Below, one piece after another: positions 2,290 to 24,662 of a stretch of DNA of 32,000 bases; positions within the stretch are counted from its first letter, which is position 1; each line of letters begins with the position of its first letter. Source of the stretch: Candidatus Hermodarchaeota archaeon (GTDB taxonomy: Archaea > Asgardarchaeota > Heimdallarchaeia > Hodarchaeales > Hodarchaeaceae); NCBI GenBank assembly GCA_048886185.1, contig JBHLKY010000008.1, positions 90,001-122,000 on the forward strand, in the 5' to 3' direction. Under the pieces are notes generated by a model. It was not told where the DNA came from and did not search any database. It saw only the letters and a program-made list of their open reading frames with translations. Made by a program: the position numbers and the translations under genes.

Positions 2290-2730
2290 ATGAGTGATCC
2301 TGATCCTGAACTTCAAGAGATTATTAGAAAAAAGGCATCATTCTTGCAAGAACGAATAGAATTTTTCGATAAAGTCAATCGTGATGGTATTACGAATGTT
2401 ATTGATACTAATATTGAGAGAATTATTCAATCGTCTCCTATACCAGTCCTAGTAGACTTTTCTGCTGATGCTTGGTGTAAACCTTGTCAAGTTATGGGTC
2501 CTGTATATGAGGAATTAAGTCATCAGTTTGCTAATAGGGTTCTTTTCGTGAAAATTAACACTGATCACAATCCACAAGCTTCAATGAAGTACAATATTTT
2601 CTCTGTACCAACGTTCATGATGTTTAATGCTGGAAAAAAGATTAACCAACGTACGGGAGCAATCCCAAAGGCAAAATTCAAAGCTTGGATTGAGGAGGTT
2701 CTTCACAGGATCCAAATATCAACCGAGTGA
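2290..2730 (+). CDS. trxA: Thioredoxin with N-terminal helical extension
   Basis: VLVDFSADAWCKPCQVM active site, VKINTD, the cis-Pro motif FSVPTFMMF, and GAIPK. Confidence 0.92.
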   Translation: MSDPDPELQEIIRKKASFLQERIEFFDKVNRDGITNVIDTNIERIIQSSPIPVLVDFSADAWCKPCQVMGPVYEELSHQFANRVLFVKINTDHNPQASMKYNIFSVPTFMMFNAGKKINQRTGAIPKAKFKAWIEEVLHRIQISTE

Positions 2731-6030: not shown

Positions 6031-7350
6031 CTAAAATGTTACTGATTTTGGTCGTTGGATTTTCACTTTCTTTTTACAGATTGGACAGACTCCCCTAATC
6101 TTAAGCCATTCAGCTAGATGTGAATAATGAGCTGGGGATCCACAATCAGGACACCGGACTAGGGATGATGATTCAGTTATATGCATACGACACACACTAC
6201 AGAACTCTTCAACCTCTGCTTCAAAAATATCTACTGATGTTCTTTCCACACGGGGGATACGCCCCGCTGTTGTAATTTCTAATTTTTTCGCTCGCATTTT
6301 AAATGATTCAGCTGCACGAGATGATTGTGCTTTTTGGGCTGCCTGTTGGAACAATTTTGCAGCATATTGAGGATTCTCTTCCTCATTTGCTAGTGCTGCT
6401 TCAGCCAAAATTGGTGTTGGCGCCTTTTCTCCAAGACTGTCTAGGAGTTCATCGTAAAGTGCTATGGCTTGATTTGTATTTTTTTTTCGTAATATATCTC
6501 GTGCAGAATCGAGAATTTTAAGAAGACGATCATATTCGGTCATTCTATCTATTAATGAGTCAGTATCCTCCTTCAAAGATTGTTTTTCCTCAGGTGAGAT
6601 TTTTTCAACTATATCTTTAGAGATACTGAGTGATCTTCTCATTTTCTCGATATTACCATTTTGGAGATTTTTCTCAACCTCTTGTAAATAATGTTCTATC
6701 GCAATGATTGGTTTACGTATCGTGGTTAAAAAGTGTTCAGCTTCTTTGACTCTTCCTTGTTTTTGCATTTCTGTAGCAGCAGCAATAATAACTGTATTGG
6801 CTTCCTCATCTGCTCCGATTGTTCGTAGAAGCTCTGCTGCTTCTATATACTTATGTTCATTGTACGCATGTCTCGCTAGATTACGAATAGCTTGATCACG
6901 ATTATGAATGATTGAAACATTCTTATCGATGATTTGTATTGCCGCAGGAATATATTCTAATCCACCAAAGTCAATGTATACTTTAGCAGCAGCAAATGGT
7001 TTTTTTGCTAAAACAAAAGCAGAAGCAGCAGTGTGGGGATCTTTTCTACTTATATGTGTTCTAGCTAACTGAATAAACGCCTTTTCTATTTGCAGAGGAG
7101 AATATTTTTTTTCTAGCCGACGTAAGACCAAAATTTGTGAGGCCTCAGGAGTTCGTAACACTAAACTAGCTGCTTGTTCCAAAGAGTCACGTGCGTAATA
7201 GTCAAGGGCGTCAAGATGTCTCCCTTGTTGTTCTAATTCTTGAGCTTTCTGAACATGCTTTTCAGAACCTTTCCTTGTGGCGATAATAATTATGACTATA
7301 ATAATTCCAATAATTATTAAGAAACCACTTTCTCCATTCATAATTATCAT
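6031..7350 (-). CDS. Single-pass membrane protein with TPR/alpha-solenoid body and C-terminal RING-type zinc finger
   Basis: N-terminal hydrophobic helix FLIIIGIIIVIIIIA; repeated A-x-x-Y/A-x-x-G helical units; C-terminal CSVC-x12-CPDC-x4-H-x2-H-x3-W-x6-CPIC. Confidence 0.75.
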   Translation of the reverse strand: MIIMNGESGFLIIIGIIIVIIIIATRKGSEKHVQKAQELEQQGRHLDALDYYARDSLEQAASLVLRTPEASQILVLRRLEKKYSPLQIEKAFIQLARTHISRKDPHTAASAFVLAKKPFAAAKVYIDFGGLEYIPAAIQIIDKNVSIIHNRDQAIRNLARHAYNEHKYIEAAELLRTIGADEEANTVIIAAATEMQKQGRVKEAEHFLTTIRKPIIAIEHYLQEVEKNLQNGNIEKMRRSLSISKDIVEKISPEEKQSLKEDTDSLIDRMTEYDRLLKILDSARDILRKKNTNQAIALYDELLDSLGEKAPTPILAEAALANEEENPQYAAKLFQQAAQKAQSSRAAESFKMRAKKLEITTAGRIPRVERTSVDIFEAEVEEFCSVCRMHITESSSLVRCPDCGSPAHYSHLAEWLKIRGVCPICKKKVKIQRPKSVTF

Positions 7351-11057: not shown

Positions 11058-11855
11058 TTATACAAAGAATCGTGAATCAAAGTCTCCTTCACTTTTTTCT
11101 GCTTCTATTTCTTTTGAGGATTGCCTATATAATTGTTTAAATTCTCGGGATCTTCTCTCTAATTCGCTAAATTCCCCTTCTATTCCCCATTCTGCTGTTA
11201 AAACCTTTAATAATTCTAAAGAGGAAATGGGGTCGTAATCTGAAAAAGAATCAACCACTATGATTTCTATTGGAATACTTCCTTTATACCCCCAATATGT
11301 CAAGAAAGAACTAGCTATTTGACCCATTAAGGTGAAATTAGCTTTCTCCTTATTTGTTACATTGATTTGAAGATTAGATGAGGTAATTCGATGAACTTGT
11401 GGCCTTTTTTCTATATTTCGATTAAAATTATATGCACCATCCAACAGATAAATTTTTGAGACATTTTGATTCTTATAGAACTTATATAATTCCTCAGCTA
11501 ACCTATAACCAATTATATCTGGTATTGCAAAACTACTTGTAGTTAGAATAAAATTTTGAGAGTTGATTTGTGATTGTAGAATAGTAATTGGAAGCAGGAT
11601 TTCTCCTGATAATAATTGAACCATTTCATTGAAGTAATTAGAGAAGAACCCAGCCAATTTTTCTGTTTTTTGGCTTAATTTTTGAACCTCGTTTGCAATC
11701 ATTCGATCAACGGATCCATAGTACCCCAACATTTCTATTACAACTGTCCTTTGAATAGAATTAGGTTTGAAGTCCTTTATAAATTTGATATTTCGTTCTT
11801 CATCGGCTTTCTCAAGCCAATCTTCGATTTCTCCAGTCAAGTTTCCTAGATGCAC
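11058..11855 (-). CDS. PAC2-family proteasome assembly chaperone-like protein
   Basis: VVIEMLGYYGSVDRMIANEV resembles the PAC2 N-terminal motif. Also KIYLLDG, YSDYD-like DPISSLELLKVL, and an acidic tail ending RFFV. Divergent. Confidence 0.6.
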   Translation of the reverse strand: MHLGNLTGEIEDWLEKADEERNIKFIKDFKPNSIQRTVVIEMLGYYGSVDRMIANEVQKLSQKTEKLAGFFSNYFNEMVQLLSGEILLPITILQSQINSQNFILTTSSFAIPDIIGYRLAEELYKFYKNQNVSKIYLLDGAYNFNRNIEKRPQVHRITSSNLQINVTNKEKANFTLMGQIASSFLTYWGYKGSIPIEIIVVDSFSDYDPISSLELLKVLTAEWGIEGEFSELERRSREFKQLYRQSSKEIEAEKSEGDFDSRFFV

Positions 11856-18516: not shown

Positions 18517-19902
18517 TCAGGGATAATTATATAATATTTCATGAGAGGATAATATTGTAGCTTTGTGTCCAAGCTCCTCAAGTGCACGATAATAGGCCTG
18601 TTGAGCCATTGGTTCTCCATGTAAGGCATAAACCAAGGATGGAGAGCTATACCGAACCATATCGATTAACCCATCAATTGAAGTGTGACCTGAAAATTCA
18701 AATCTTTTTACTTCTAATGATAATTTGATGTCATAATAATCTCCAAATCCATTATCAAGTGTTATATCCGTTTTACCTGAGGCAATATCCGAGCCAAGAG
18801 TTCCCTCGACCTGATATCCGACAATGTACAACCCATTAAGAGGATCATTTCCTCCAAATCGGAGATAATCATAAACTGGCCCTCCTTCAAGCATTCCTGA
18901 AGTAGTTAGAATTATACTTGGTTTGCTTTGTGTGACTAATTTTTCACGTTTACTCCCCCTCTTTCCTTTATAAGAAACTTCGTCAACTGTTCTAAGCCCT
19001 TCATGCTCGAAAGGAGTTCTATAACCTCTTTCCTCCAATTCTATGAGAATACGTGGTGAAACCCACTTTTTATTCAGATATTTTTGATAAACTGAATTCA
19101 TATCCAAGATCATTCCATCAATATAAAGGGGAAATTTATGAAGAAAAGAATCAAAATCACTAGTAAGGTATGATTGTATTTCTTGGCTTCTTCCTAACGC
19201 AAAAGATGGAATGATTGCTTTTCCTCCGCGTGAATAACACTTTAACAAAGATTTAGTTAAATTTGACGTAGCAAGTTTCCTACTACTCCCTATATTACGA
19301 TTCGCATTCGTGGTTTCAGTTAATAATACATCAATAGGATTATCTGGATCTGGGTAAACAATAGGGTCATGATAAGGAGTTTTTGCATCATTATAGTCCC
19401 CTGTATAAAAGATCAGGGTGCCTTCCCAATCAAGGAGAATTGCAGCACTACCTAAAATATGGCTTGCATCATAAAATTCAGCTGTAATTCCAGGCGCAAC
19501 CCGAAATTTTCTATGATACTCATGTGTTTTAGTCTTCGCAAGGGCGGAATGTAAGTGAGAGATACCATAATGATGTGGTCCCTCAATTTTTAAGTGATCT
19601 TTCCAGAGAATGTCCACGATATCTTTGGTAGGGGTGGTCATATGTACCTGTTCTTTATAACCAGCCCGATATAAAGCAGGAATGTACGCAGAATGATCTA
19701 TATGAGCATGAGATAGCACCACAGAAGCAATGTCTTCACAAAATTCATCTACTCCTTCTGGTGGAGTTGATAATTTACCTGTTCTACGGGGATGAAGCTC
19801 AATACCTGCATCTAAGAGGACACGTCGGTCTTCTTCATCGGAAATCATGACACAAGATTTCCCCACTGAATCCGCTGCACCGAAAACTGTAATTTCTAGC
19901 AT
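18517..19902 (-). CDS. beta-CASP metallo-beta-lactamase ribonuclease (aCPSF2/CPSF73-like, no KH domains)
   Basis: VGKSC, SHAHIDH, ASHILGSA, YTGDY, PSFALGRSQE, TSGMLEGGP, VGYQVEGTLG, FSGH and HGE motifs. Confidence 0.9.
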   Translation of the reverse strand: MLEITVFGAADSVGKSCVMISDEEDRRVLLDAGIELHPRRTGKLSTPPEGVDEFCEDIASVVLSHAHIDHSAYIPALYRAGYKEQVHMTTPTKDIVDILWKDHLKIEGPHHYGISHLHSALAKTKTHEYHRKFRVAPGITAEFYDASHILGSAAILLDWEGTLIFYTGDYNDAKTPYHDPIVYPDPDNPIDVLLTETTNANRNIGSSRKLATSNLTKSLLKCYSRGGKAIIPSFALGRSQEIQSYLTSDFDSFLHKFPLYIDGMILDMNSVYQKYLNKKWVSPRILIELEERGYRTPFEHEGLRTVDEVSYKGKRGSKREKLVTQSKPSIILTTSGMLEGGPVYDYLRFGGNDPLNGLYIVGYQVEGTLGSDIASGKTDITLDNGFGDYYDIKLSLEVKRFEFSGHTSIDGLIDMVRYSSPSLVYALHGEPMAQQAYYRALEELGHKATILSSHEILYNYP

Positions 19903-21030: not shown

Positions 21031-23238
21031 TTAAGAATCAAATGCTTCTAAGATATATGAGTAGATTTCCTTTTCTTCCCCTTTTGATACTTGTTGTAAT
21101 CGTCGCACAATCAATTCTGGGGTTGACTTTGCATATTTATAATAAATAGGGGTTCGATTCACTATGAGTTCTAGATCTTCGGAAAGGCCTTGAGCCTCAA
21201 TTCCATCAATTCGGAGTTTTTTCTTACTATGTTTAGCAATAAGTTGAGCCAGATGAGTCACAAATATCCCAACGGAGTCTTGAGATTGTTCTAATAAATC
21301 TAGAAAGGCTGCAATTACCCGAGCTGAAGCACCTGGTTCCGAAATACTCTCCATTTCATCAGCTAGCACAAATCGAGATTTAGGGCTCATAATCATGCGT
21401 GTTAAGGTTTGTAGTGTTGATTCAAAAGCGCCCGCGTCCATCTGCCCTGAGGTTTTTCGATAGTAATGCAATTCATTAAAACCACCAAGAACGGCCCGTT
21501 TACATGGAATAGGTAAACCCATTTGACCTAGAATTATCATTACTGCTAAAGAAACAATTAATGTCGTTTTTCCACCGCTATTTGCTCCTGAAAGAAGGAT
21601 GATGCGTTCACCATCAACACGATTAGCAATCCTGCCAATTTTTCCTGCTGCATAGGATACTGGTTCTACCTTTAAAGCCCCTCGATGTTCTTGTTGAATT
21701 AGAAACAGATTGCGTCCTTCTTCTACTAGGATCCCCGTACCCTGTCCTTCAATAAGTCGTGGGAGAACCAACTTATATGAGAGGGAGAATTTTCCTATCA
21801 TAAGAAGATAATCGAGTTCTAGCATATAATTTAATGCTGTTCTTGCTATTGACTCAAATCGCCGTAGAGATTTTGCTAGGGTCACCTTTAATTCAAATGC
21901 TTTAATTGCACGCATTTGCCGCAAATAATTTTTCATTCGATTAACTACATTGTCAACAGGATCAACAGGGTATCGCAGTTCTCTTGGAAAAATCCCCATA
22001 AGGTAATCAGTCTCATCACTTCTCAACTCCAAACTTTTGATTAGTGTTTCCTCAGCCTTAGTAATTATTTCTTCAACTGCTAGATACAGTTCATCATCCA
22101 GATACTCACGGAGCTCAGCTTTTCCACTGTCGCCAGAATATCTCTGATCTTCCTCAGACATCCCTTTAAGAAGAGCAAGGATCTTTTCTCCTTCTAAATG
22201 AACAGTTGTATCGTGAAGTTTTTTTTCTAATTCCTCATTCAAAGACAACAAGATTTCGCTCAATTTGTGTTCAAACGTTTGTTCGGCCCTTAGAAGACGG
22301 GAATATTCTTTGTTAAATCTGTGTGTTGGTTCACCTGACTCTTCAAGGTTTAAAAGCTCATTACCCATTTCTATAAGCATATCAAGATTTAATTCCCCTG
22401 TTAATACTGTTAGCTCTAAAGGAGGAAGTGTTTTAAGTAATTTGGCTAGTTCAGATATTGATTCAAGGATTTTTTTGTTCTGTGCAAAAAAATTAAGCAT
22501 TTTCTCTGGGATTATCTGAGTTAAATCATTACGTTGAGATTCCGAAATCGTAATCGTGTTGGATAATCCGTCTTCAAGTAAGAAATCTGATCCAATCCAG
22601 ATAACTTCATCATATCCTCCAATAACTTCTGAAACCTGCTCACTATCCTCAACAAAAAGAGTTTCACAATGATATCCAATCTCATTAGTTGTTATCTCTT
22701 CATAAATCTGCTTATCAGTAGTTACTATGACTCTGGATGCTGTATCAAGATGGTTGACGCGCTCCTTAAGAGATGTGAGGTTCCTGAGAAGGAGATCATA
22801 CTCTTTAAACGAATGAGGGGAGTTCTTTATCATAGATACTAATTCTTTTGCCCTTTTGGTAGTATTTTGCCTCTCTTTGATTTTATTCACAGCTGAAAAA
22901 GGTAGTGGAAAAAATAAGTACAATTTCGATCGTGAGTAGATTGTATTGGCAAATTTCGAGATAATATCAACAATTCGATTGTAAATTAGGATCGCATCTT
23001 CAGTTTTAAGAAAATTTTGAATTTGTTCACCAGTTTCTTGAAAATGGAGGTTACGACACAGGCTTAAAGCAAACTTTTCGCCAATACCCTCTATAGATGA
23101 GATTTCTGCTATTCGAGATTCTCGTAATGCGATAAGAGCAGTATTTTCACTTCCGAAATATGCCTTCAGTTTTTCCTCCACCGAAGGGCCAATTCCACGG
23201 ATGTCTCGAAGGTTACTTATACTCAAAGTAGGTTCCAT
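21031..23238 (-). CDS. Archaeal MutS-like ATPase with N-terminal helix-hairpin-helix repeats (MutS2/MutS5-type, no mismatch-recognition domain)
   Basis: HhH motifs IRGIGP and IEGIGE; domain V LSGANSGGKTT, DAGAFE, LADEMESISEPG, FVTHL. Confidence 0.85.
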   Translation of the reverse strand: MEPTLSISNLRDIRGIGPSVEEKLKAYFGSENTALIALRESRIAEISSIEGIGEKFALSLCRNLHFQETGEQIQNFLKTEDAILIYNRIVDIISKFANTIYSRSKLYLFFPLPFSAVNKIKERQNTTKRAKELVSMIKNSPHSFKEYDLLLRNLTSLKERVNHLDTASRVIVTTDKQIYEEITTNEIGYHCETLFVEDSEQVSEVIGGYDEVIWIGSDFLLEDGLSNTITISESQRNDLTQIIPEKMLNFFAQNKKILESISELAKLLKTLPPLELTVLTGELNLDMLIEMGNELLNLEESGEPTHRFNKEYSRLLRAEQTFEHKLSEILLSLNEELEKKLHDTTVHLEGEKILALLKGMSEEDQRYSGDSGKAELREYLDDELYLAVEEIITKAEETLIKSLELRSDETDYLMGIFPRELRYPVDPVDNVVNRMKNYLRQMRAIKAFELKVTLAKSLRRFESIARTALNYMLELDYLLMIGKFSLSYKLVLPRLIEGQGTGILVEEGRNLFLIQQEHRGALKVEPVSYAAGKIGRIANRVDGERIILLSGANSGGKTTLIVSLAVMIILGQMGLPIPCKRAVLGGFNELHYYRKTSGQMDAGAFESTLQTLTRMIMSPKSRFVLADEMESISEPGASARVIAAFLDLLEQSQDSVGIFVTHLAQLIAKHSKKKLRIDGIEAQGLSEDLELIVNRTPIYYKYAKSTPELIVRRLQQVSKGEEKEIYSYILEAFDS

Positions 23239-23308
23239 TCACGTTTGGTTATTAATTGGAGAATGTTAGGATTTGCCTTTTTGCCTTTTTTCCAAATTAA
23301 TTATTGAT

Positions 23309-24220
23309 TTAGATTTTTTCGATTTTTTTTGCTGCAGCGAGCTTAATGAATTCATGAACCTCAGAATAGGAACAATGATCAGAATAAGGAAAAAAATGTA
23401 CGTCAATACGTTTTTGGCGCAAGCGTGCTGCCCAACCGGTAGGGGAGATTCGTACAGCTTCAGACATTTTGTCTTGGTATTGCTTTTCTACTCCCTGAAA
23501 GTTCTCAACCATTCTACGACTACCAACAAAAATCCCTGAATCACGATCACTAGTGAAGATATCCCATTCTCCCCCAATCTCCTTATAAGTTTGGACTTTT
23601 TGATCTGATGCCCAAATTTTCACTTTCAAAGCATCACTAATTGTTTTGAGAAGTTTTTCCTTACCAATTTGATAAGAAGATATCCACACGTCTCTTGCTG
23701 GATAATTCCCTTCAGATAAAATCAATGTAATAATTTCTGAAATTATTTTTTCTCTCGTAGGAAATTGAAATAATGAATCATTACCATAAGTATAATCAAC
23801 CCAAAGATGATCTGAGCCTTGAATTAAATCGAATTCATTAAGAATTGGTGTTCCAAACCTGAAATCACCGGTATAGACTTCTTTTAATCCATCTCTTGAC
23901 TCAATGACATAAATCAAGCTACCCAAACAATGGTTTGCATCTAGGGCGTGAATAACAAAATTATCAAAGTCTAATGATTGACTGGATTTTAATGTGAGGC
24001 ATTTTTCAGGAGGGATCTCATAAAGCACCTTTATAACTGCTGCTGTTTCCTCAGAGCAAACTATTGTGGCATCAGGATCAGATAAACATGATTTGAGACC
24101 TGAGGTATGATCAGAGTGAGCGTGTGATAGGAAAAAATACCCTGAAGATTTTTTCCTTCGTACTCTTCGTTGAAATGGGAATTCATCAAAATAACTTTGA
24201 GCAATCGTTGAAAATACCAT
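23309..24220 (-). CDS. SNM1/Apollo/Artemis-like DNA-processing beta-CASP nuclease
   Basis: FFLSHAHSDHTSGL, DANHCLGS, YTGDFR, DYTY, YQIGKE, PTGW and PYSDHCSYSE motifs. Confidence 0.85.
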   Translation of the reverse strand: MVFSTIAQSYFDEFPFQRRVRRKKSSGYFFLSHAHSDHTSGLKSCLSDPDATIVCSEETAAVIKVLYEIPPEKCLTLKSSQSLDFDNFVIHALDANHCLGSLIYVIESRDGLKEVYTGDFRFGTPILNEFDLIQGSDHLWVDYTYGNDSLFQFPTREKIISEIITLILSEGNYPARDVWISSYQIGKEKLLKTISDALKVKIWASDQKVQTYKEIGGEWDIFTSDRDSGIFVGSRRMVENFQGVEKQYQDKMSEAVRISPTGWAARLRQKRIDVHFFPYSDHCSYSEVHEFIKLAAAKKIEKI

Positions 24221-24485: not shown

Positions 24486-24662
24486 TGCGCCTAATAGTTA
24501 GGAATCTCTGTTTCCGGGTTCGGAATGAGACCGGGTGTAACCCAGGCCCTTTGGCCGAGCAATACTCAGCTTTTCGATTTTCCCGATGGCTCGCGCACAA
24601 CAGTACAGACCGAAACGGAACCTAACTTAACTTCCGGCAGAGATTCGCAGGTTATTGGCGCA
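24486..24662 (-). ncRNA. Predicted precursor of the permuted 5S rRNA: complementary leader and trailer forming a processing stem with a BHB-like motif
   Basis: In transcript orientation, leader GAAUCUCUG (24646..24638) pairs with trailer CAGAGAUUC (24510..24502), and UGCGCC (24662..24657) pairs with GGCGCA (24491..24486). The central helix is CCGG/CCGG with AAG and AAA 3-nt bulges. A TATA-like element lies near 24712..24720 and T-tracts follow downstream. Confidence 0.75.
24512..24631 (-). rRNA. rrf: 5S rRNA gene, circularly permuted (3' half 24631..24564, ATT linker 24563..24561, 5' half 24560..24512)
   Basis: Conserved ACACCCGGUCUCAUUCCGAACCCGGAA (helix III/loop C) and GUUAAG...CUGUACUG...GCGAGC...GGGAAA (loop E/helix IV) are both present but in swapped order. 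Helix I GCUCGGC/GCUGAGU is closed by AUU. Total length 120 nt. Confidence 0.9.

What the first reader, a model, noticed from the sequence alone, without database searches (positions are those of the whole stretch)
23309..24220. Eukaryote-like SNM1/Apollo nuclease in an archaeon
Seen: the motif series FFLSHAHSDHTSGL / DANHCLGS / YTGDFR / YQIGKE / PTGW / PYSDHCSYSE. Known, from recalled sequence: human Apollo (SNM1B) has FFLSHMHSDHTVGL, DANHCPGS, YTGDFRY, YSLGKE and PYSDHSSYSE, and this DNA-specific beta-CASP group acts in crosslink repair, telomere processing and V(D)J recombination. Inference: a possible archaeal sister of the SNM1A/B/Artemis family and a candidate eukaryotic signature protein.
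Basis: partly seen in the sequence, partly recalled or inferred. Interest (0 to 1): 0.72.

Follow-up and report, generated by a model that had tools for sequence, protein, structure and literature searches.

The report
Minimal SNM1-type DNA nuclease in Hodarchaeales
An Asgard (Hodarchaeales) archaeon really does encode a small, complete version of the human SNM1A/Apollo DNA-repair nuclease, next to a MutS-like ATPase gene. Bacteria carry the same small version, so it is not shown to be the direct ancestor of the eukaryotic enzymes.

Summary
Window 23309-24220 (-) is an intact 303-aa ORF carrying every quoted motif. Its best solved relatives are human Apollo (E 7e-28), SNM1A and Artemis. It passes Pfam DRMBL. 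A confident model (pLDDT 95) superposes on SNM1A at TM 0.84.

It is not a ligase-associated exonuclease, a contaminant or a recent transfer from eukaryotes. It lies in Asgard-typical gene context and is present in 20 of 21 species of its genus. It falls outside a monophyletic eukaryotic SNM1A/Apollo/Artemis clade (99/98 support).

The "archaeal sister / eukaryotic signature protein" reading is only partly supported:
- The protein belongs to a family of about 280-310-aa standalone SNM1-like proteins shared by a few Asgard lineages and by bacteria (Planctomycetota and others).
- The best trees put eukaryotes next to bacterial members. An Asgard+eukaryote clade is not rejected (AU p 0.19).

Apollo's 5'-phosphate pocket residues are conserved, so a 5'-3' DNA exonuclease is the likeliest activity. 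In Hodarchaeales the gene sits immediately upstream of an HhH-MutS-domain-V ATPase, and the pair persists down to 34-38% identity, which suggests a two-gene repair module.

First readers of this scan noted the same pair in sister genomes. In passing, the upstream spacer holds a circularly permuted 5S rRNA gene, which the scan has also reported before.

The parts
23309..24220 (-). Gene for a 303-aa standalone SNM1/DRMBL-type MBL-beta-CASP nuclease (P0001). Proposed metal ligands and motifs: D12; H33/H35/D37/H38; H97; D119; motif A D142; motif B H282. 5'-phosphate pocket equivalents: Y183, K187, T261, S280, D281.
   Evidence: ORF and translation. Pfam Lactamase_B_2 + DRMBL. PDB sequence matches and alignment. 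Invariant columns. AF2 model pLDDT 95.2. Foldseek SNM1A TM 0.84, Apollo 0.81, Artemis 0.78 versus CPSF/RNase J at or below 0.69.
21031..23238 (-). Downstream co-oriented gene for a 735-aa ATPase with an N-terminal helix-hairpin-helix and MutS domain V. No mismatch-binding domain I and no Smr domain were detected by Pfam (archaeal MutS5-like). It is the candidate partner of the nuclease.
   Evidence: Pfam MutS_V + HHH_5. Only weak NCBIfam KamC/MutS2 hits. PDB MutS2/Msh3 ATPase-domain hits only. Adjacency conserved in the genus, in family f2 (G078, G079) and next to P0240.
23239..23308 (-). 70-nt spacer between the two genes. It is A-rich on the coding strand and has no oligo-T run, so co-transcription is plausible.
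   Evidence: Sequence read directly. The spacers I computed from coordinates are about 60-80 nt. Co-transcription is inferred, not shown.

Best explanation
The gene encodes a minimal, catalytically complete member of the SNM1 (DCLRE1/Pso2/Apollo/Artemis) branch of MBL-beta-CASP nucleases, kept by vertical descent in Hodarchaeales. Its most likely activity is a metal-dependent 5'-to-3' DNA exonuclease that needs a 5'-phosphate, as SNM1A and Apollo do. It probably acts together with the HhH-MutS-domain-V ATPase encoded 70 nt downstream, with the ATPase sensing or clamping damaged or branched DNA and the nuclease resecting it. In evolutionary terms it belongs to a prokaryotic family of standalone 280-310-aa SNM1-like proteins found in a few Asgard lineages and in bacteria. 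This family is the nearest prokaryotic relative of the monophyletic eukaryotic SNM1A/Apollo/Artemis clade.

Shown: family membership, fold, residue conservation, distribution, gene pairing and tree topology. Inferred: DNA substrate, exonuclease polarity, co-transcription and cooperation with the ATPase.
For: **Family**
- Pfam DRMBL is over its cut-off.
- The best PDB sequence hits are Apollo, SNM1A and Artemis.
- The model has pLDDT 95.2 and pTM 0.92. It matches SNM1A, Apollo and Artemis at TM 0.77-0.84, against 0.57-0.69 for CPSF73, RNase J and aCPSF.

**Catalytic set**
- MBL motifs 1-4 and beta-CASP motifs A and B are invariant or nearly so across 34 and 62 aligned relatives.

**Exonuclease type**
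- Apollo's 5'-phosphate pocket residues are Y182, K186, T257, S274 and D275 (PMC8450094).
- In the HMMER alignment they align with Y183, K187, T261, S280 and D281.
- Apollo S258 is Gly here, as in the PTGW of the SNM1A-type plant and protist rows.

**Native gene**
- The window carries Asgard-typical genes: CDC48, PAC2, NAT10/TmcA, an OST3/6-like thioredoxin, RING, JAB, HerA and MptE.
- Orthologues of 63-80% identity occur in 20 of 21 species of the genus, with conserved synteny.

**Pairing with the ATPase**
- The same two genes are adjacent and co-oriented in 18 other genomes of the genus and in both genomes of family f2 at 38-43% identity.
- They are also adjacent next to the 34%-identical P0240, where the flanking genes differ.

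**Phylogeny**
- The SNM1-like total group is separated from the ligase-associated-type outgroup with 100/100 support.
- Eukaryotes are monophyletic (99/98 and 100/99).
- The Asgard proteins form one clade (94/92) outside the eukaryotes.
Against: - No biochemical or expression data exist, and no RNA run holds the locus.
- Beta-CASP motif C (Val in eukaryotic SNM1 proteins) has no counterpart. The protein ends at I303, one residue short of it.
- The ATPase is widespread in Asgard without the nuclease: 172 of 400 genomes against about 26.
- Three Asgard genomes of another class (G397-G399) carry the nuclease unlinked to the ATPase.
- One genus member (G065, 70% complete) has the nuclease but no detected ATPase.
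- Within one genus, adjacency is just shared synteny. The independent support comes from only about 3 deeper lineages of the same order.
Confidence: 0.7

Rival explanations
1. Bacterial-origin reading: the standalone SNM1-like family is basically bacterial. Eukaryotes acquired SNM1 from a bacterium, and a few Asgard lineages obtained their copies separately by horizontal transfer. On this reading the Hodarchaeales gene says nothing direct about eukaryogenesis.
For: - In the careful trees, eukaryotes group with bacterial-context short proteins: P0115, P0171 and P0122 at 92/85, within a bacterial+eukaryote group at 84/81 or 92/59.
- Bacterial membership is real. One member is a Planctomycetota record flanked by trigger factor and ClpP. 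Others have PilZ/FloA, BshC/NamZ and OMP beta-barrel neighbours.
- Within Asgard the gene is patchy: 4 of 33 families.
Against: - The branches that decide this are weakly supported.
- The AU test does not reject Asgard+eukaryotes (p 0.186, delta lnL 10.8).
- The Asgard proteins are monophyletic and deeply diverged (33-38% identity between lineages), so any transfer was ancient.
- Rooting relies on a long outgroup branch.
Confidence: 0.4
2. RNA-processing reading: like the other archaeal beta-CASP proteins (aCPSF1/2, aRNase J), it is a ribonuclease.
For: - All beta-CASP proteins characterised so far in archaea, as far as I recall, are ribonucleases.
- The generic MBL fold also matches RNase J and CPSF73 at TM 0.6-0.69.
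Against: - It matches DRMBL, not the RNA-specificity domain RMMBL.
- A separate aCPSF-type paralogue with Beta-Casp + RMMBL lies 3.4 kb away, at 18517-19902.
- There is no motif C His.
- SNM1 structures match far better than RNases.
- The 5'-phosphate pocket of the DNA exonucleases is conserved.
- The partner gene is a DNA-type HhH/MutS ATPase.
Confidence: 0.07
3. Ligase-associated DNA-damage-response exonuclease (TIGR04122 type, the Lhr-ligase operon nuclease).
For: It is the best NCBIfam hit (E 4e-11). It is the same size class and is standalone.
Against: - The score is 42 bits against a family cut-off of 325.
- The archaeal proteins of that look (P0064-P0091) form the outgroup, separated by a 100/100 branch of about 1-2 substitutions per site.
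- The Pfam scans of the window's larger ORFs found no DNA ligase or Lhr.
Confidence: 0.02
4. Contaminant, or recent transfer from a eukaryote.
For: Motif identity to animal Apollo is striking, and the best eukaryotic hit is a coral protein (36% identity, E 1e-44). The MAG has 4.96% estimated contamination.
Against: - GC content is flat at 0.34-0.37 across the locus.
- The longest contig on record carrying this protein is about 251 kb, and the window's gene context is Asgard-typical.
- Orthologues with the same synteny occur in 20 of 21 sister species, including closed genomes.
- Eukaryotes are monophyletic to its exclusion.
Confidence: 0.01

Closest known systems
Human SNM1B/Apollo (DCLRE1B; PDB 5aho, 7a1f, 7b2x) and SNM1A (DCLRE1A; PDB 5ahr, 4b87, 5nzw); yeast Pso2
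   Same: - Same MBL + beta-CASP + DRMBL core of about 300 residues.
- Same MBL motifs 1-4 and beta-CASP motifs A and B.
- The same 5'-phosphate pocket residues (Y, K, T, S, D).
- TM 0.81-0.84 to the model.
- About 30% sequence identity over 270 residues by HMMER, and 24-26% in the structural alignment.
   Different: - It has no N- or C-terminal extensions. SNM1A's core is C-terminal in a roughly 1000-aa protein. Apollo carries a long C-terminal tail, which as far as I recall binds TRF2.
- It ends one residue before the motif C Val.
- It lies outside the eukaryotic clade.
- It is encoded in an apparent operon with a MutS5-like ATPase.
Artemis (SNM1C/DCLRE1C; PDB 6tt5, 6wo0)
   Same: Same fold (TM 0.77-0.78) and the same catalytic motifs.
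   Different: Artemis lacks the open 5'-phosphate pocket (Phe308 occludes it; PMC8450094) and is an endonuclease activated by DNA-PKcs. The archaeal protein keeps the pocket residues. Sequence similarity is weaker (E 5e-13) and covers only residues 65-239.
Bacterial standalone SNM1-like proteins (for example the Planctomycetota MAG protein MFH0964534.1 = P0173; uncharacterised)
   Same: Same length (280-310 aa), same motif set, same truncated C-terminus, and 24-33% identity. Together they form the prokaryotic grade next to eukaryotic SNM1.
   Different: The bacterial genes have other neighbours, and no MutS-like ATPase was seen beside them. In the two planctomycete-type contigs examined, one labelled Planctomycetota and one unlabelled with the same synteny, a small radical-SAM gene and an FHA gene follow the nuclease. 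They form clades separate from the Asgard proteins.
Ligase-associated DNA damage response exonuclease (NCBIfam TIGR04122)
   Same: A standalone prokaryotic beta-CASP DNA nuclease of similar size.
   Different: It scores far below the family cut-off (42 versus 325 bits), is separated by a 100/100 branch, and has no ligase/Lhr context.
Archaeal MutS5 (Lin, Nei & Ma 2007, PMC2190696), for the neighbouring gene
   Same: Archaea-specific MutS relative with similarity limited to the C-terminal ATPase (MutSac / domain V) region.
   Different: Membership was not tested against a reference MutS5 sequence. The N-terminal HhH module and the pairing with an SNM1-like nuclease are not described in that paper.

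Membership tests
SNM1/DCLRE1/Pso2 family (Pfam DRMBL-bearing beta-CASP DNA nucleases) | MBL motifs 1-4 (D; HxHxDH; H; D) that bind the metal ions | tested here: met
   D12, H33-x-H35-x-D37-H38, H97 and D119 are invariant or at least 90% conserved in alignments A1 and A3.
SNM1/DCLRE1/Pso2 family (Pfam DRMBL-bearing beta-CASP DNA nucleases) | Beta-CASP motifs A (acidic) and B (His) | tested here: met
   D142 (in VDYTY) and H282 (in PYSDH) are invariant.
SNM1/DCLRE1/Pso2 family (Pfam DRMBL-bearing beta-CASP DNA nucleases) | Beta-CASP motif C is Val (DNA type) rather than His (RNA type) | tested here: not met
   The protein ends at I303, aligned one residue before the P-T/I-V Val of the eukaryotic rows. 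No His is present. Many prokaryotic short members end at the same point. The feature is absent rather than contradicted.
SNM1/DCLRE1/Pso2 family (Pfam DRMBL-bearing beta-CASP DNA nucleases) | Pfam PF07522 (DRMBL) above its gathering score | tested here: met
   32.1 bits against a cut-off of 22. The whole-genome scan finds this as the only DRMBL locus (33.7 bits).
SNM1/DCLRE1/Pso2 family (Pfam DRMBL-bearing beta-CASP DNA nucleases) | SNM1-type three-dimensional fold | tested here: met
   The AF2 model has pLDDT 95.2. The top 22 Foldseek PDB matches are all SNM1A, Apollo or Artemis (TM 0.75-0.84). The next matches are RNA-type beta-CASP proteins at or below 0.69.
SNM1/DCLRE1/Pso2 family (Pfam DRMBL-bearing beta-CASP DNA nucleases) | 5'-phosphate binding pocket of the exonucleases SNM1A and Apollo | tested here: met
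   Apollo Y182, K186, T257, S274 and D275 (PMC8450094) align with Y183, K187, T261, S280 and D281. This is tested by alignment only.
SNM1/DCLRE1/Pso2 family (Pfam DRMBL-bearing beta-CASP DNA nucleases) | Placement within the clade of eukaryotic SNM1A/B/C | tested here: not met
   It lies outside the eukaryotic clade (99/98, 100/99) and inside the wider SNM1-like total group (100/100). It is therefore a member of the wider family, not an orthologue of A, B or C.
SNM1/DCLRE1/Pso2 family (Pfam DRMBL-bearing beta-CASP DNA nucleases) | 5'-3' exonuclease or structure-specific DNA nuclease activity; role in crosslink repair | not testable with these tools
   This needs enzyme assays and genetics.
Eukaryotic signature protein (Asgard + eukaryotes only) | Absent from bacteria and from other archaea | tested here: not met
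   Bacterial members of the same short subfamily exist.
Ligase-associated DNA damage response exonuclease (TIGR04122) | Score above the equivalog cut-off, and a ligase/Lhr operon context | tested here: not met
   42.3 bits against a cut-off of 325. It is separated from that type by a 100/100 branch. No ligase or Lhr was found among the window ORFs scanned.

The most novel reading that the evidence does not exclude
The eukaryotic SNM1A/Apollo/Artemis nucleases descend vertically from an Asgard (Hodarchaeales-like) standalone SNM1 gene that already worked as a two-gene repair module with a MutS5-like HhH ATPase. The bacterial copies would then be ancient transfers. That would make this module the prokaryotic precursor of eukaryotic crosslink and end-processing repair.
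Probability: 0.2. Interest if true: 0.75.

Novelty: new variant of a known kind. Interest (0 to 1): 0.55.

Why it matters
[quoted passage not shown] My full-text searches found no paper describing Asgard or bacterial SNM1-type proteins.
- A 303-aa prokaryotic version with the full catalytic and 5'-phosphate-pocket set would be a minimal model enzyme for a drug-target family.
- It gives a concrete prokaryotic anchor for the origin of eukaryotic interstrand-crosslink and DNA-end processing.
- Its conserved pairing with a mismatch-domain-less MutS ATPase suggests a testable function for the long-enigmatic archaeal MutS5-type proteins.
- The value is tempered. Automatic annotation already labels some members "DNA cross-link repair 1A protein", bacteria share the family, and the Asgard-to-eukaryote descent is unresolved.

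Tried and rejected
1. **Complex prediction.** Complex prediction with nuclease residues 8-303 and ATPase residues 1-700, both as alignments, returned "no answer". This is neither support nor evidence against binding.
2. **Sequencing runs.** The look-up of sequencing runs listed no RNA holder, only sediment-metagenome DNA contigs that may be the source sample. Read laying was therefore not used, and nothing can be said about expression.
3. **Scan of GTDB representative genomes.** The family's distribution across all bacterial genomes was therefore not measured.
4. **AU test on 89 rows.** It did not finish in two runs. It was repeated on 47 rows.
5. **Literature.** No description of archaeal or bacterial SNM1 homologues was found. 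The main texts of Eme et al. 2023 and the 2026 Nature paper "Dominant contribution of Asgard archaea to eukaryogenesis" do not mention SNM1, DCLRE1, Artemis or Pso2. Their supplements were not searched.
6. **Explanations considered and rejected.** Ligase-associated exonuclease, RNA-type beta-CASP, contaminant and recent eukaryotic transfer (see rival explanations).
7. **Not run.** The sigma-70 promoter/terminator scan, because it does not apply to archaeal promoters.

Full report
**Observation**

The minus strand of window 23309-24220 carries an intact 303-aa ORF.

The similarity is far beyond chance. E is 7e-28 to Apollo, 3e-22 to SNM1A and 5e-13 to Artemis. Pfam gives Lactamase_B_2 plus DRMBL (32.1 bits, cut-off 22).

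**Organism and authenticity**

The window is contig 8 (90001-122000) of a 4.84-Mb, 96%-complete MAG. Source names of the closest homologues are Hodarchaeales, Hodarchaeota, Heimdallarchaeota and "Hodarchaeum mangrovi".

Neighbouring genes are typical of Asgard archaea: CDC48, PAC2, NAT10/TmcA, an OST3/6-like thioredoxin, RING, JAB, HerA, MptE-like and PTPS. GC content is even across the locus.

A six-frame search of 400 genomes of the phylum gave these results:
- 63-80% identical orthologues in 20 of 21 species of the same genus, all about 303 aa.
- 38-39% relatives in both genomes of a second family of the order.
- 33-35% relatives in three genomes of two families of another class.
- Only weak, other-family MBL matches (E of 2e-20 or weaker) everywhere else.

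Synteny around the gene is conserved across the genus. Contamination and recent acquisition are excluded.

**What it is**

AlphaFold2, run on a 62-row alignment, gives pLDDT 95.2 and pTM 0.92. The 22 best Foldseek PDB matches are all SNM1A (TM up to 0.84), Apollo (0.81) or Artemis (0.78). RNA-type beta-CASP enzymes (aCPSF, RNase J, CPSF73, IntS11) follow at 0.57-0.69.

MBL motifs 1-4 (D12, H33/H35/D37/H38, H97, D119) and beta-CASP motifs A (D142) and B (H282) are invariant or nearly so.

Baddock et al. 2021 (PMC8450094) define the 5'-phosphate pocket that makes Apollo and SNM1A exonucleases as Y182, K186, T257, S258, S274 and D275. They report that it is not conserved in the endonuclease Artemis. 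In the alignment these residues fall on Y183, K187, T261, G262, S280 and D281. The Gly matches the PTGW of the SNM1A-type rows. I therefore infer a 5'-phosphate-dependent 5'-3' DNA exonuclease.

One family feature is missing. The protein ends at I303, one residue before the motif C Val of eukaryotic proteins, and there is no His.

The RNA-type alternative is further weakened by a separate aCPSF-like paralogue (Beta-Casp + RMMBL) at 18517-19902. The ligase-associated exonuclease model TIGR04122 scores only 42 bits against a cut-off of 325.

**Relatives and phylogeny**

An exhaustive HMMER search of 1.84 billion cluster representatives found 2,509 relatives, 945 of them below 1e-10. The best 150 fall into three groups:
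- About 34 standalone proteins of 254-320 aa.
- Proteins with the domain at the N-terminus. These are Apollo types; labelled members are fish, urchin, barnacle and coral proteins.
- Proteins with the domain at the C-terminus or fused to a ligase. These are SNM1A/Pso2-type and plant DNA ligase 6.

Seven of the standalone representatives group as one clade. Those with source names are Asgard (Hodarchaeales, "Thorarchaeota" or "Wukongarchaeota" labels).

The others I could place are bacterial:
- P0173 is a Planctomycetota MAG protein flanked by trigger factor and ClpP.
- P0196 shares P0173's local synteny.
- P0112 sits among PilZ, FloA and NfeD genes.
- P0097 sits among BshC and NamZ genes.
- P0115 is next to an outer-membrane beta-barrel gene.
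- P0171 is next to DUF2141.

IQ-TREE was run under LG+C20+F+G4 (PMSF) on 89 rows and 47 rows. The trees were rooted with archaeal ligase-associated-type proteins. They give:
- The SNM1-like total group at 100/100.
- Eukaryotes (SNM1A/LIG6, Apollo, Artemis) monophyletic at 99/98 and 100/99.
- The seven Asgard-clade proteins monophyletic at 94/92 in the 47-row tree, and unresolved at the base in the 89-row tree.
- Eukaryotes next to a small bacterial-context group (P0115, P0171, P0122; 92/85), inside a bacterial+eukaryote assemblage (84/81 and 92/59).

Forcing Asgard+eukaryotes into one clade costs 10.8 lnL units and is not rejected (AU p 0.186).

The gene is therefore an old prokaryotic relative of the eukaryotic family, not a transfer from eukaryotes. 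Whether eukaryotes got SNM1 from an Asgard ancestor or from a bacterium is open, and the point estimate favours bacteria. Because bacteria share the subfamily, it is not a eukaryotic signature protein in the strict sense.

**Gene pair**

Seventy nucleotides downstream on the same strand lies a 735-aa protein with an N-terminal helix-hairpin-helix and MutS domain V. Pfam detects no mismatch-binding domain and no Smr domain. This matches the description of archaeal MutS5 (PMC2190696), although membership was not tested against a reference sequence.

Coordinates show the two genes adjacent and co-oriented in 18 other genomes of the genus. The spacers I computed are about 60-80 nt. The pair is also adjacent in both genomes of the sister family (38-43% identity). 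It recurs beside the 34%-identical P0240 in two further Hodarchaeales-labelled MAGs, where the flanking genes differ.

The spacer has no oligo-T run on the coding strand.

The ATPase alone is far more widespread in Asgard: 172 of 400 genomes, but none of the other Heimdallarchaeia families. The nuclease is unlinked to it in G397-G399.

I read this as an order-level two-gene DNA-repair module, with a damage or branch sensor plus an exonuclease. Cooperation is inferred from gene order only.

**Earlier notes of this scan**

First readers noted the same pair in this genome and in several sister genomes (e1-5454813, e1-3784863 and others). One follow-up described the related nuclease of another Asgard genus next to radA (e1-5393862). 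These notes agree with what I tested here. None had addressed the bacterial members or the tree.

**Noticed in passing**

The 525-nt spacer upstream of the nuclease gene holds a conserved element of about 180 nt (24486-24662, minus strand). Rfam's 5S model hits it only in two sub-threshold pieces, in swapped order. The genome has no 5S rRNA above the cut-off anywhere.

By eye, and by RNAalifold on 12 species, it is a circularly permuted 5S gene:
- The back half comes first.
- Helix I is capped by a loop.
- The flanks form a covarying 9-bp helix plus a bulge-helix-bulge-like motif. Cleavage and ligation there would restore the canonical junction as a 120-nt circle.

Across 83 genomes of the class, only 4 have a 5S match over the cut-off. 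Many show two abutting partial hits. The scan has already reported and followed up this feature in other genomes.

**Verdict**

It is a new, minimal, prokaryotic variant of a known nuclease family. Interest is moderate to high for DNA-repair evolution and as a model enzyme. The ancestry claim remains undecided.

Noticed in passing
window 24486-24662 (minus strand), in the spacer between the SNM1-like gene and the MptE-like gene: This is a circularly permuted 5S rRNA gene.
- Rfam 5S hits it only below threshold, in two swapped pieces: model 1-26 + 52-120 at 24665-24561, and model 27-51 at 24536-24512.
- The genome has no 5S above the cut-off anywhere.
- Helix I is capped by a loop.
- A covarying 9-bp helix (24646-24638 with 24510-24502) plus a bulge / 4-bp / bulge motif flanks a 120-nt core (about 24631-24512). 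Ligating its ends would restore the canonical ...CCCGGAAGUUAAG... junction.
- A TATA-like TTTAAAG lies upstream and a T-run lies downstream.
- Only 4 of 83 genomes of the class have a 5S over the cut-off, and many show two abutting partial hits.
- The scan has already reported this in other genomes (for example e1-1238420 and e1-3748513).
- No RNA data were available.

   Followed up: partly
window 18517-19902 (-): A 461-aa aCPSF-type beta-CASP protein (Lactamase_B_2 + Beta-Casp + RMMBL). It is the RNA-type paralogue, only 3.4 kb from the DNA-type SNM1-like gene.
   Followed up: no
G062:C6:82752-83660 (sister species; no locus fetched): The orthologous SNM1-like gene of one sister species carries a single in-frame TAA. 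An earlier first-reader note describes the same kind of break (e1-3760733). It could be a pseudogene, a sequencing error or read-through; I did not examine it.
   Followed up: no
L036 6001-7597 and L038 4291-5915 (planctomycete-type bacterial contigs): In the two bacterial contigs of this type that I examined, the SNM1-like gene overlaps or abuts a small radical-SAM (Fer4_12 + Radical_SAM) gene, followed by a divergently oriented FHA-domain gene. This may be a different conserved partnership in bacteria.
   Followed up: no
window 2290-2730 (+), 6031-7350 (-), 11058-11855 (-): Eukaryote-flavoured genes occur in the same window: a thioredoxin-fold protein that also matches OST3/OST6, a protein with a weak, below-cut-off RING-finger match at its C-terminus, and a PAC2 (proteasome assembly chaperone) family protein.
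   Followed up: no
P0261 (1633 aa, assembled from a public sequencing run): An SNM1 domain fused to a complete ATP-dependent DNA ligase (DNA_ligase_A_N/M/C). This is the plant DNA ligase 6 architecture, and it is among the better eukaryote-type matches to the archaeal protein.
   Followed up: no
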